A DNA stretch of 64,000 nucleotides. Source: Patescibacteria group bacterium (lineage in GTDB: Bacteria; Patescibacteriota; Minisyncoccia; Phycocordibacterales; PALSA-1337). The notes below the pieces were generated by a model. It was not told the DNA's origin, did no database searches, and saw only the letters and a list, made by a program, of their open reading frames with translations. Positions 35,694-37,651 of this stretch are shown here, one piece after another. Numbering within the stretch: position 1 is the stretch's first letter; every line of letters begins with the position of its first letter. The position numbers and the translations under genes were made by a program. The DNA is taken from the NCBI GenBank assembly GCA_038064415.1, contig JBBTTD010000003.1, forward strand, positions 2,597 through 66,596, in the 5' to 3' direction.

Positions 35694-36476
35694 ATGAATC
35701 CATGGATACAATTAAGCATTGATTACGCAAATCAAAAGAATTATCTCGATGATCTTTTTCAAGTGTACCCAACTATTCCTGATGGGATTAGAGATATTGA
35801 TACAACATTATGGAAAAAAACTGAAAAAGCGTTCAAGGATCGTAAAAATGACGAACTTGTAGAGAGTCTATTGCAACTTGATCTTTTTCCGATAAAAGAT
35901 TCATACGTTGCTTATCTTAAGAGAGATAAGAAAGCAATGCAAAGAAATCCAGCAACAATTTCTCGCTTAGCAGGTCGTTTATATGGAATGGGATTGACTA
36001 GACTTTTTGAGCGTTGCTCCGAACCAAAAGAGACGAATCGTCAGATTGGCCCATTATTCCGTCGCTGGTTAAATAGAAAATCATTAGGCGTTGAGTCTTT
36101 AAAAGTAGAGCAATTTTTAGCCACGAAAGACAATGCAATTCTTGATGCTGGTGATATTGAAATGATGGGTTTTGCAAGAGAATATCTTAATTACAAACAT
36201 GGTAAAGGGCTAGATCTAGTTGCTAGATTTAATAATAAGTATGTTATTGCAGAAGCAAAATTTCTTACTGATTTTGGTGGACATCAAAATGCTCAGTTTA
36301 ATGACGCTATATCTACAATAAAAGCAAAGAATGTAAACGCTATTAAAGTCGCTATCTTAGATGGTGTTCTTTATATAAAAGGTAATAACAAAATGTATCG
36401 AGATATTACTACAACCCTGAAAAAAGAAAATATTATGAGTAGCCTTGTTCTTCGTGAATTTCTTTATCAAATATAA
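35694..36476 (+). CDS. Candidate Type II restriction endonuclease (PD-(D/E)XK) of an R-M pair
   Basis: GLDLVARFNNKYVIAEAKF = D...ExK catalytic motif; 5 bp upstream of a DNA methyltransferase; very AT-rich. Confidence 0.45.
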   Translation: MNPWIQLSIDYANQKNYLDDLFQVYPTIPDGIRDIDTTLWKKTEKAFKDRKNDELVESLLQLDLFPIKDSYVAYLKRDKKAMQRNPATISRLAGRLYGMGLTRLFERCSEPKETNRQIGPLFRRWLNRKSLGVESLKVEQFLATKDNAILDAGDIEMMGFAREYLNYKHGKGLDLVARFNNKYVIAEAKFLTDFGGHQNAQFNDAISTIKAKNVNAIKVAILDGVLYIKGNNKMYRDITTTLKKENIMSSLVLREFLYQI

Positions 36477-36481
36477 TTTAT

Positions 36482-37651
36482 ATGATACTGACATATCACA
36501 ACAAAAAAACAGAGCATGAGATTCTCAATACTGCTAAAGCGGAACTTTTTTCTGTTTCAGGAATAAATTCAAAGAATAAAATTATTCAGGGTAATAATTT
36601 AGCCGTATTGAAATCCCTACTCGATGATTATAATCTGAAAGGGAAAGTTGATTTGATATACATTGATCCTCCGTTTTCGACAAACACACACTTCCGGATG
36701 GGTGAAGAAAGGGCCAATACGATTAGTAGCAGTAATCAAGATCAAGTTGCATATAGTGATATTTTAACTGGTGCTAATTTTCTGGAGTTTTTACGAGAAA
36801 GACTGATTTTATTACGCGAATTGATGTCTTCTCAGGCATCGATATACCTCCACATAGATTATAAAATTGGACATTATGTAAAACTCATAATGGATGAAGT
36901 CTTTGGAATTGAAAATTTTCGTAATGATATAACTAGAATCAAATGTAATCCAAAAAATTTCCATCGAAAGGCTTATGGCAATATAAAAGACATGATCCTT
37001 TTTTACTCACGGTCGGAAAATCATATTTGGAATGATCCAATATTGTCATTCTCAGATGAAGATATTGAACGTTTGTTTAAGAAAATTGATAAGAGCGGAC
37101 GTAAGTATACGACTATTCCATTACATGCTCCTGGTGAAACAGTGAATGGAAAAACTGGCAAAGAGTGGAATGGGATTAAACCACCCAAAGGACGTCACTG
37201 GAGGAGTGATCCAAAAATTCTTGAGGAATGGGATAAACAAGGACTGATTGAATGGTCGGTAAACAATGTTCCAAGAAAGAAAATTTTTATAGATGAGAGA
37301 GATGGGAAAAAGATGCAAGATATTTGGGAATTTAAAGATCCACAATATCCAATGTATCCAACTGAAAAAAACATTGATTTGTTAAAGTTTATTATAAGAG
37401 CATCTTCTAATGAACAAAGTTTAGTACTAGATTGTTTTTGTGGGTCAGGTACGACCATTGTTGCGGCACAAGAATTAAATAGAAATTGGATAGGTATTGA
37501 TCAGTCCGATCATGCTATTAAAGTTGTTAAAAAAAAGTTGAACAACATACCTAAAAGTTTGTTTTCAAAGCCTGAATATGAAGTACTTTTAGAGAAATCA
37601 AAAAATCTAATGATTAAAACCATTAAACCAAAAACTCTAATTGTTCATTGA
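36482..37651 (+). CDS. Beta-class DNA amino-methyltransferase (N6-adenine or N4-cytosine)
   Basis: Motif IV DLIYIDPPFS precedes C-terminal motif I VLDCFCGSGTTIVAA (FxGSGTT) - circular permutation typical of beta-class MTases. Confidence 0.75.
   Translation: MILTYHNKKTEHEILNTAKAELFSVSGINSKNKIIQGNNLAVLKSLLDDYNLKGKVDLIYIDPPFSTNTHFRMGEERANTISSSNQDQVAYSDILTGANFLEFLRERLILLRELMSSQASIYLHIDYKIGHYVKLIMDEVFGIENFRNDITRIKCNPKNFHRKAYGNIKDMILFYSRSENHIWNDPILSFSDEDIERLFKKIDKSGRKYTTIPLHAPGETVNGKTGKEWNGIKPPKGRHWRSDPKILEEWDKQGLIEWSVNNVPRKKIFIDERDGKKMQDIWEFKDPQYPMYPTEKNIDLLKFIIRASSNEQSLVLDCFCGSGTTIVAAQELNRNWIGIDQSDHAIKVVKKKLNNIPKSLFSKPEYEVLLEKSKNLMIKTIKPKTLIVH

What the first reader, a model, noticed from the sequence alone, without database searches (positions are those of the whole stretch)
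35694..37651. Candidate Type II restriction-modification system (PD-ExK endonuclease + beta-class amino-MTase), more AT-rich than surroundings
A 260-aa ORF with a D...ExK catalytic constellation (GLDLVARFNNKYVIAEAKF) sits 5 bp upstream of a 389-aa methyltransferase with motif IV DPPF before motif I FxGSGTT (beta-class N6A/N4C MTase). Codon usage is markedly AT-rich, and the pair lies between the RNR gene and rnpB. This is consistent with a horizontally acquired R-M cassette.
Basis: partly seen in the sequence, partly recalled or inferred. Interest (0 to 1): 0.55.

Follow-up and report, generated by a model that had tools for sequence, protein, structure and literature searches.

The report
Tsp45I-family type II restriction-modification cassette
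This is an ordinary, intact two-gene restriction-modification system (a Tsp45I-family DNA-cutting enzyme plus its protective DNA methylase) that a groundwater Patescibacteria bacterium picked up by horizontal transfer; public databases already annotate it as such.

Summary
ORF 35694-36476 (260 aa) matches Pfam PF06300, "Tsp45I type II restriction enzyme", end to end (E 8.9e-119). Its D174...E187-x-K189 triad is at least 90% conserved across 91 diverse family representatives. Five bp downstream, ORF 36482-37651 (389 aa) is a beta-class N6_N4 amino-methyltransferase, with DPPF at 62-65 before FCGSGTT at 319-325. Its best defence-library hit is a type II MTase model (E 9.8e-175), not an orphan MTase model. 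The two genes have the lowest GC of 41 long ORFs in the window. None of 80 species-level relatives carries them, although most keep the RNR-rnpB-MurJ-LepA order. Homologues 73-81% identical occur in unrelated contexts in other Patescibacteria and in other phyla, always as an R-then-M pair. Both genes are under purifying selection (dN/dS about 0.1). NCBI already holds the exact proteins, named "restriction endonuclease" and "site-specific DNA-methyltransferase". The recognition site (GTSAC, m6A) is inferred only from the family prototype; GTSAC is not avoided in the host DNA. The verdict is a new member of a known kind, of low interest. Two minor points: the family has no solved structure, and the cassette moves without conserved flanks.

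The parts
33325..35646 (+). Left boundary (context, not part of the system): class II ribonucleotide reductase gene, 773 aa
   Evidence: Pfam ATP-cone, RNR_Alpha, RNR-II_ins_dom and Ribonuc_red_lgC. Conserved next to rnpB in relatives.
35680..35685 (+). Candidate -10 box (TATAAT) 8 nt upstream of the R start codon, with no Shine-Dalgarno sequence; possible promoter for a leaderless or short-leader R-M transcript (inferred)
   Evidence: Sequence read directly. The same kind of -10-like box 4-12 nt before the start codon is found at 14 of 41 long ORFs, against 10.6% of random positions. The consensus promoter scan did not call it because no -35 hexamer fits.
35694..36476 (+). R gene: Tsp45I-family type II restriction endonuclease, 260 aa
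   Evidence: PF06300, 1-260 of 260 profile positions, E 8.9e-119. PADLOC REase_II, E 1.2e-122. AlphaFold2 model with mean pLDDT 97.2. dN/dS about 0.10-0.11 against homologues.
36207..36263 (+). Catalytic PD-(D/E)XK segment, residues 172-190 (D174 at 36213-36215, E187 at 36252-36254, K189 at 36258-36260)
   Evidence: D174 conserved in 90/91, E187 in 86/91 and K189 in 87/91 diverse representatives. In the model D174 sits just before strand 175-179, and E187/K189 lie in strand 182-191.
36477..36481 (+). 5-bp spacer (TTTAT) between the R stop codon and the M start codon; R and M are probably co-transcribed and translationally coupled (inferred)
   Evidence: Homologous cassettes have a similar 5-8 bp junction, and the junction is identical in L090 (TTTATATG).
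36482..37651 (+). M gene: beta-class N6_N4 DNA amino-methyltransferase, 389 aa
   Evidence: PF01555, E 1.8e-42. PADLOC MTase_II PDLC03354, E 9.8e-175. The best PDB sequence matches are mostly N6-adenine MTases (EcoP15I Mod, MboIIA, DpnA, CcrM). dN/dS about 0.075.
36665..36676 (+). MTase motif IV, DPPF (residues 62-65), the catalytic loop
37436..37456 (+). MTase motif I, FCGSGTT (residues 319-325), AdoMet binding; it lies C-terminal to motif IV, which is the beta-class order
37194..37198 (.). The only GTSAC site (GTCAC) inside the cassette
37687..37715 (+). Promoter-like site (TTGTCA-17-TATATT) directly upstream of rnpB, left intact downstream of the insertion (context)
   Evidence: 10 of 12 matches.
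37721..38061 (+). Right boundary (context): RNase P RNA, bacterial class A
   Evidence: Rfam RF00010, 116.2 bits, E 7.2e-35.

Best explanation
The two genes form an intact type II (most likely IIP) restriction-modification operon of the Tsp45I family. The 260-aa protein is a Mg2+-dependent PD-(D/E)XK endonuclease with catalytic residues D174, E187 and K189. It cuts unmethylated copies of a short recognition sequence in incoming DNA. The 389-aa beta-class amino-methyltransferase uses AdoMet to methylate the same sequence in host DNA, probably at N6 of adenine, and so protects the host. By analogy with the family prototype Tsp45I, and with M.Hpy99II (beta class, GTSAC, m6A), the site is most likely GTSAC. 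The two ORFs are probably transcribed together from a -10 box just upstream of R, with M translated by coupling across the 5-bp gap. The cassette was inserted horizontally into the short RNR-rnpB intergenic region of a Patescibacteria (Paceibacteria-type) genome. Shown here: family membership, intactness, conservation of catalytic residues, purifying selection, R-M pairing across the family, and insertion relative to relatives. Inferred: enzymatic activity, the recognition sequence, the methylated base, and the mode of expression.
For: R family: PF06300, E 8.9e-119, full length; PADLOC REase_II, E 1.2e-122. Catalytic triad at least 90% conserved in 91 representatives of 29-53% identity, and the window protein keeps every conserved residue except the non-catalytic A186. 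The AlphaFold2 model (pLDDT 97.2) has an alpha/beta C-terminal core, and its weak PDB neighbours are mostly PD-(D/E)XK nucleases. PMC3424549 assigns PF06300 to PD-(D/E)XK. M family: PF01555, E 1.8e-42; PADLOC MTase_II, E 9.8e-175 against orphan MTase 2.5e-20; motif IV before motif I. The closest solved relatives include several N6-adenine MTases, with N4C enzymes much weaker. Pairing: R and M homologues come from the same contigs at similar identity. The R-then-M order with a 5-8 bp gap recurs in three unrelated Patescibacteria contexts. The genes are also adjacent on a conjugative Campylobacter plasmid (R 40%, M 52%) and next to an MTase in Miltoncostaea. Selection: dN/dS 0.075-0.11. Horizontal origin: 0 of 80 relatives carry it while most keep the synteny; the empty RNR-rnpB gap is 18-90 bp in three relatives; the pair has the lowest GC in the window. 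GTSAC/m6A/beta/IIP for M.Hpy99II: PMC3936762.
Against: No activity data exist. GTSAC is not under-represented in the window (79 observed against 76-77 expected). It is also not depleted in 114 kb from carriers (ratio 1.03) compared with 1.34 Mb from non-carriers (1.04). This fits recent acquisition but gives no support to GTSAC. Identity to R.Tsp45I or M.Tsp45I themselves could not be measured because the sequences and the paper were not available. It was also not tested whether R.Hpy99II belongs to PF06300. Source annotations of close M homologues disagree: one says cytosine methyltransferase, several say adenine-specific. No -35 element accompanies the putative -10 box. No solved structure confirms the fold; the best Foldseek E-value is 1.4e-2.
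Confidence: 0.86

Rival explanations
1. The system is the same kind (an intact Tsp45I-family type II R-M) but recognises a sequence other than GTSAC, giving a new specificity within the family.
For: Specificity was inferred only from the family name. The family is deep, with 593 clusters at 50% identity and members down to about 28% identity. REase and MTase specificities commonly diverge at such distances (established knowledge of type II enzymes). GTSAC is not avoided in the window or in other carriers.
Against: The Pfam profile built around Tsp45I matches over all 260 positions at 396 bits. The clade containing this protein is unusually uniform, at 73-80% identity across phyla, which suggests a single conserved specificity for that clade. 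Whether that specificity is GTSAC remains unknown.
Confidence: 0.35
2. The endonuclease is inactive, so the pair is functionally a solitary methyltransferase used for epigenetic regulation or as anti-restriction camouflage.
For: Decayed REase genes next to active MTases are common (general knowledge). Lack of GTSAC avoidance would also fit absence of restriction pressure.
Against: R is full length and keeps D174, E187, K189 and all other conserved positions except A186. dN/dS for R is 0.10-0.11, as low as for M. The best M match is a type II R-M MTase model, not the orphan model.
Confidence: 0.07
3. The methyltransferase is a type III Mod-like enzyme, and the upstream ORF is an unrelated nuclease.
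For: M has secondary hits to type III MTase models (E 1.1e-44), and its best PDB sequence matches include EcoP15I Mod and an H. pylori Mod.
Against: The type II model scores about 130 orders of magnitude better (E 9.8e-175). No Res/helicase gene lies in the neighbourhood. The upstream ORF belongs to a named type II REase family and co-travels with this MTase in every context examined.
Confidence: 0.02
4. The pair is ancestral to this lineage and was lost in the relatives, rather than being horizontally acquired.
For: The RNR-rnpB gap varies among relatives, so repeated loss cannot be formally excluded.
Against: It is absent from all 80 species-level relatives, including those with 85-89% identical RNR. 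Its GC is about 8 points below the window mean. Its closest homologues (80%) are in unrelated genomic contexts and in other phyla such as Elusimicrobia, Deltaproteobacteria and Nitrospinae.
Confidence: 0.04

Closest known systems
Tsp45I restriction-modification system of Thermus sp. YS45 (prototype of Pfam PF06300; Wayne, Holden and Xu 1997, cited in PMC3424549)
   Same: The REase falls in the same Pfam family over its full length (396 bits). It is a two-gene type II system with a separate amino-MTase. Like this cassette, the prototype is on a mobile replicon (a plasmid, according to the paper's title).
   Different: The host is a mesophilic groundwater Patescibacteria MAG, and the cassette is chromosomal, between RNR and rnpB. 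Pairwise identity to Tsp45I itself and identity of the recognition site (GTSAC) were not measurable here.
Hpy99II / M.Hpy99II of Helicobacter pylori J99 (jhp0045; GTSAC, m6A, type IIP, beta class; PMC3936762)
   Same: It has a beta-class amino-MTase in a type IIP system. The DPPF catalytic motif and the N6A-biased PDB neighbours here fit m6A.
   Different: Sequence relatedness to M.Hpy99II or R.Hpy99II was not tested. H. pylori J99 has only 210 GTSAC sites in its genome (PMC3936762), whereas this 64-kb window alone has 79 and shows no avoidance.
R-M pair on Campylobacter armoricus conjugative plasmid pCA639-2 (WP_126267760.1 / WP_126267761.1)
   Same: It has the same two families in the same R-then-M order with adjoining ORFs. 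R is 40% and M 52% identical.
   Different: It is plasmid-borne among conjugation genes and is much more divergent than the 73-81% identical homologues found across Patescibacteria and other phyla.
EcoRI-type operon layout (R gene upstream of M, no controller protein) - from my own knowledge, not tested here
   Same: R precedes M on one strand, and no C-protein gene is present.
   Different: EcoRI belongs to a different REase family and has a gamma-class MTase. The internal promoters and antisense RNAs described for EcoRI were not found by the simple promoter scan here.

Membership tests
Pfam PF06300 (Tsp45I type II restriction enzyme) | Score above the Pfam gathering threshold (25 bits) over the whole profile | tested here: met
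   396.2 bits, E 8.9e-119, protein residues 2-260 on profile positions 1-260 of 260.
PD-(D/E)XK nuclease superfamily | Conserved D...(D/E)xK catalytic residues on the alpha/beta core | tested here: met
   D174 conserved in 90/91, E187 in 86/91 and K189 in 87/91. D174 sits just before strand 175-179 and E187/K189 lie in strand 182-191 of a pLDDT-97 model. PMC3424549 gives the family-level assignment.
PD-(D/E)XK nuclease superfamily | Significant structural similarity to a solved PD-(D/E)XK nuclease | tested here: inconclusive
   No Foldseek PDB hit at E <= 1e-3. The top weak hits (VC1899, Card1, Can2, ACE1/Cas4, NucS/EndoMS, XisH, MGME1) are PD-(D/E)XK proteins, but TM-scores are at most 0.32. 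The Pfam PDDEXK_4 hit (E 0.029) is below its cut-off.
Beta-class N6A/N4C DNA amino-methyltransferase (PF01555 N6_N4_Mtase) | Pfam gathering threshold met, and motif IV (D/N/S)PP(Y/F) lying N-terminal to motif I FxGxG | tested here: met
   146.2 bits against a cut-off of 26.7. DPPF at 62-65 and FCGSGTT at 319-325.
Type II R-M system | Separate, adjacent REase and MTase genes, with no ATPase/helicase (HsdR/Res) or specificity subunit | tested here: met
   The two ORFs are 5 bp apart. The neighbours are RNR, rnpB, MurJ and LepA. PADLOC REase_II and MTase_II are the best hits.
Type II R-M system | REase and MTase act on the same defined sequence, with cleavage at a fixed position | not testable with these tools
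   This needs enzymology or methylome data.
Tsp45I isoschizomer (recognition of GTSAC) | Recognition and methylation of GTSAC | tested here: inconclusive
   The only indirect test was site avoidance. The GTSAC observed/expected ratio is 1.04 in the window, 1.03 in carriers and 1.04 in non-carriers, which is no signal either way.
Orphan (solitary) DNA methyltransferase | No cognate REase gene adjacent, and best similarity to orphan MTase families (Dam, CcrM and the like) | tested here: not met
   An intact REase gene lies 5 bp upstream. The PADLOC orphan MTase model scores E 2.5e-20 against 9.8e-175 for MTase_II. NCBIfam CcrM scores 70 bits against a cut-off of 830.
C-protein-controlled R-M system | A small HTH controller gene and C-box upstream of R | tested here: not met
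   Only 47 bp separate the RNR stop codon from the R start codon, and no small ORF is present.

The most novel reading that the evidence does not exclude
The R-M pair is a minimal, flank-less selfish unit. Only the two ORFs are conserved between copies: DNA similarity starts no more than 14 bp before the R start codon and fades inside M's C-terminal tail. In this window it has no repeats, integrase or transposase. Even so, it has spread at 73-81% protein identity among Patescibacteria, Elusimicrobia, Deltaproteobacteria and Nitrospinae, and it lands tightly between housekeeping genes. In this lineage it landed in an RNR-rnpB gap that carries different cargo in different relatives. This would imply an insertion route not yet described, for example one promoted by the REase's own double-strand breaks. 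The clade may also have a recognition site different from GTSAC.
Probability: 0.15. Interest if true: 0.35.

Novelty: new member of a known kind. Interest (0 to 1): 0.12.

Why it matters
It matters little beyond correct annotation. It adds one more example to the published picture that genome-reduced Patescibacteria, which mostly lack CRISPR-Cas, rely on R-M systems and that some of these were horizontally acquired (PMC12455944). There are two modest practical points. First, the Tsp45I family has no solved structure, and the very confident model obtained here (pLDDT 97) has an N-terminal helical domain with no PDB counterpart, so the family is a reasonable crystallography or cryo-EM target. 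Second, if metagenomic methylome data exist for the source groundwater sample, a motif assigned to this MTase could help bin contigs and link phages or hosts to this uncultured lineage.

Tried and rejected
1. A sequence search of R against the PDB found no hit even at E <= 1.
2. A Foldseek search of the R model against the PDB found nothing significant, so the fold assignment rests on motif conservation and on the literature.
3. NCBIfam has no model for R.
4. A tblastn search of R against 50,697 phage records found no match, so there is no evidence for phage carriage.
5. A search for direct or inverted repeats flanking the cassette found only short chance-level matches, none bracketing the cassette.
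6. The consensus promoter and terminator scan found no more sites than in shuffled sequence. It called no promoter upstream of R and no terminator after M.
7. GTSAC avoidance was tested as a proxy for specificity in the window and in other carriers, with no signal. A differential scan of all 4-6-bp palindromes, carriers against non-carriers, singled out no candidate site for this system. The depleted words (TCGA, ACGT, CTSAG and others) are mostly also somewhat depleted in the non-carriers.
8. The original Tsp45I paper (PubMed 9427549) is not held, so identity to the prototype and its gene order could not be checked.
9. A type III Mod reading of M was considered and rejected.
10. dS was saturated in 3 of 6 pairwise comparisons, so dN/dS is reported only for the three that could be estimated.
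Full report
**1. Observation**

The quoted peptide GLDLVARFNNKYVIAEAKF is residues 172-190 of the first ORF. In the second ORF, DPPF is at residues 62-65 and FCGSGTT at 319-325, so motif IV precedes motif I, as in beta-class amino-methyltransferases.

The left neighbour is a class II ribonucleotide reductase (ATP-cone, RNR_Alpha and B12-RNR insertion domain). The right neighbour is RNase P RNA at 37721-38061 (Rfam RF00010, 116 bits).

The AT-richness is also real. Among 41 long ORFs in the window, the two genes have the lowest GC (0.332 and 0.327, against a mean of 0.413 with sd 0.045). 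R has the lowest GC3, at 0.218.

**2. What the proteins are**

The 260-aa protein matches Pfam PF06300, "Tsp45I type II restriction enzyme", over all 260 profile positions (396 bits, E 8.9e-119). It also matches a PADLOC type II REase model (E 1.2e-122). NCBIfam has no model for it, and it has no sequence relative in the PDB. Steczkiewicz et al. 2012 (PMC3424549) assigned PF06300 to the PD-(D/E)XK superfamily by remote homology.

I tested the catalytic motif directly. A whole-library HMMER search found 593 clusters at 50% identity. In an alignment of 91 full-length representatives, 29-53% identical to the query, the counts are:
- D174 conserved in 90 of 91
- E187 conserved in 86 of 91
- K189 conserved in 87 of 91

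The window protein keeps every conserved position except A186, where the consensus is G.

An AlphaFold2 model built from this alignment is very confident (mean pLDDT 97.2, pTM 0.87). It shows a helical N-terminal half (residues 1-127) and an alpha/beta C-terminal half. D174 sits just before strand 175-179, and E187/K189 lie within strand 182-191.

Foldseek against the PDB gave no significant match (best E 1.4e-2). The weak neighbours are nevertheless mostly PD-(D/E)XK nucleases: VC1899, Card1, Can2, Cas4-family ACE1, NucS/EndoMS, XisH and MGME1. The core fold assignment is therefore plausible, but the family has no closely related solved structure.

The 389-aa protein is a PF01555 N6_N4 DNA methylase (E 1.8e-42). 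Its best PADLOC hit is a type II MTase model (E 9.8e-175). Type III Mod models score about 1e-44, and the orphan-MTase model scores 2.5e-20.

Its closest solved relatives by sequence include the N6-adenine enzymes EcoP15I Mod, MboIIA, DpnA and CcrM; N4-cytosine enzymes score much lower. By established motif rules, N6A beta enzymes typically carry DPP(Y/F) and N4C enzymes SPP(Y/F); this rule is from my own knowledge. Together with the DPPF catalytic loop, this favours m6A. Source annotations of close homologues disagree, however: one says "cytosine methyltransferase" and several say "adenine-specific".

**3. Is it a system?**

R and M homologues are found on the same contigs with similar identity to the window proteins. 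I looked at three close homologues in unrelated genomic contexts:
- L086: beside a serine recombinase and an HTH gene
- L088: between a release-factor gene and ftsE
- L090: between a Rieske-protein gene and a superoxide dismutase gene

In all three the arrangement is R then M with a 5-8 bp gap.

A conjugative Campylobacter armoricus plasmid carries the same pair in the same order, with R 40% and M 52% identical. A Miltoncostaea megaplasmid has an MTase immediately upstream of a 28%-identical R homologue that is annotated only as hypothetical.

Both genes are under purifying selection. dN/dS is 0.10-0.11 for R and 0.075 for M where dS could be estimated. No controller gene is present, since only 47 bp separate the RNR stop codon from the R start codon. 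No Res, HsdR or HsdS gene lies nearby.

**4. Origin**

The window is part of a 110.6-kb Patescibacteria contig from an ENA groundwater assembly. NCBI already names the exact proteins "MAG: restriction endonuclease" and "MAG: site-specific DNA-methyltransferase".

Using the RNR protein as an anchor, I fetched 80 species-representative genomes with RNR 66-89% identical. Their records are mostly labelled Paceibacterota, Taylorbacteria, Parcubacteria or "uncultured Saccharibacteria". Most keep the RNR-rnpB-MurJ-LepA order, but none has R or M. Where Rfam gives exact rnpB coordinates, the empty RNR-rnpB gap is only about 18-90 bp (L037, L042, L032). In the window, 47 bp plus 69 bp of intergenic DNA flank a 1,958-bp insert.

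Other relatives carry unrelated cargo in the same gap, for example a roughly 275-aa protein of unidentified family in six of them, so the site is variable.

DNA similarity between the window cassette and the L086, L088 and L090 cassettes (72-75% identity) begins no more than 14 bp upstream of the R start codon. It ends inside M's variable C-terminal tail. No bracketing repeats were found, and no phage record carries the gene.

Close homologues (73-81% identical) occur in Patescibacteria, Elusimicrobia, Deltaproteobacteria and Nitrospinae MAGs. The low GC adds to this. Horizontal acquisition is well supported.

**5. How it most likely works**

The following is inferred from family knowledge. 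M methylates the recognition sequence on both strands of host DNA using AdoMet. R, probably as a homodimer, cleaves unmethylated copies of that sequence in incoming DNA through the D174/E187/K189 metal site.

On expression, a perfect TATAAT lies 8 nt upstream of the R start codon, with no Shine-Dalgarno sequence. This matches the host's habit. Only 5 of 29 genes examined have a Shine-Dalgarno-like sequence. In contrast, 14 of 41 have a -10-like box 4-12 nt upstream of the start codon, against 10.6% of random positions. R-M is therefore probably transcribed as a leaderless or short-leader mRNA, with M translated by coupling across the 5-bp gap. The rnpB promoter-like site (37687-37715) lies downstream of the insert and is intact.

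**6. Specificity**

The prototype Tsp45I cuts GTSAC. In H. pylori J99, GTSAC is m6A-methylated by the beta-class type IIP enzyme M.Hpy99II (PMC3936762). That makes GTSAC with m6A the best guess, but it is only a guess. I could not measure identity to Tsp45I itself.

GTSAC is not avoided in the window: 79 observed against 77.3 expected by shuffling and 75.9 by a Markov model. It is also not avoided in 114 kb from four carriers (ratio 1.03) compared with 1.34 Mb from non-carriers (1.04). Lack of avoidance fits recent acquisition but neither supports nor refutes GTSAC.

**7. Comparison and novelty**

By its defining criteria this is a member of PF06300 and of the beta-class N6_N4 MTases, and it has the architecture of a type II system. 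Public databases already annotate it automatically, and published work already notes that Patescibacteria rely on R-M systems, some of them horizontally acquired (PMC12455944). It is a new, uncharacterised member of a known kind.

A few things are mildly interesting:
- The family has no solved structure.
- The clade is unusually uniform across phyla.
- The cassette moves without conserved flanks.
- The RNR-rnpB gap is variable in this lineage.

**8. Verdict**

The finding is ordinary. Interest is 0.12.

Noticed in passing
window 1-64000: Several short palindromes are strongly under-represented relative to a maximal-order Markov expectation: ACGT (24 against 119, ratio 0.20), CTSAG (0.31), GCWGC (0.32), TCGA (63 against 191, ratio 0.33), CCWGG (0.53) and GGCC (0.61). 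GTSAC is not (1.04). The depletion is stronger than in 1.34 Mb from 80 relatives, where TCGA is 0.91 and ACGT 0.77. This suggests long-term pressure from other R-M specificities on this lineage or its community.
   Followed up: partly
L006-L085, between the RNR match and rnpB (for example L015 10001-13447, L022 3-5794, L031, L077): The RNR-rnpB gap is a variable spot in this clade. It is empty (18-90 bp) in some relatives. Six loci (L015, L016, L017, L022, L027, L030) carry a roughly 275-aa protein of unidentified family there. L077 carries a 268-aa protein with an AdoMet-binding-type glycine motif (VLDVGCGIGG), and other loci carry miscellaneous ORFs. The gap ORFs were not scanned against protein families.
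   Followed up: partly
window 38061-38288, compared with L006 13357-15946 and most other relatives: Most relatives have about 2.5 kb between rnpB and murJ. In the window, murJ starts about 230 bp after rnpB, as in L020, L021, L024, L025, L029, L043 and L082. A gene is therefore present or absent on the other side of rnpB as well.
   Followed up: no
window, upstream of many ORF starts (for example 27398, 28618, 31034, 41919, 46565): Few genes have a Shine-Dalgarno-like sequence (5 of 29). Many have an extended -10-like box (TGnTAnnAT) ending 4-12 nt before the start codon (14 of 41, against 10.6% of random positions). This suggests widespread leaderless or very short-leader mRNAs in this Patescibacteria genome.
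   Followed up: partly
L086 5866-13537 (ENA ERZ27247989 k141_1325612): The closest R-M homologue (80% identical) sits next to a large serine recombinase and an HTH_17/MerR-type gene. It is followed by defence-like genes (HARE-HTH plus PDDEXK_5, DUF8370/DUF8371, SLFN_AlbA_2). This looks like an integrative defence island and is a possible vehicle for the cassette.
   Followed up: no
L093 3920-4828 (Miltoncostaea oceani plasmid NZ_CP064357.1, WP_217924455.1): A 28%-identical Tsp45I-family homologue is annotated only as "hypothetical protein". It lies directly downstream of a site-specific DNA-methyltransferase, in M-then-R order. This is probably an unannotated R-M system.
   Followed up: no
protein P0306 (590 aa; Tsp45I-like region at residues 328-587): One family representative has a roughly 327-residue N-terminal extension in front of the Tsp45I domain. 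It could be a fusion or a mis-called gene.
   Followed up: no
window 41919-44594 (+) and 31034-31804 (+): An 891-aa protein with a Peptidase_S74 domain lies just downstream of lepA. A 256-aa PDDEXK_1/Cas4-like protein lies about 4 kb upstream of the cassette.
   Followed up: no
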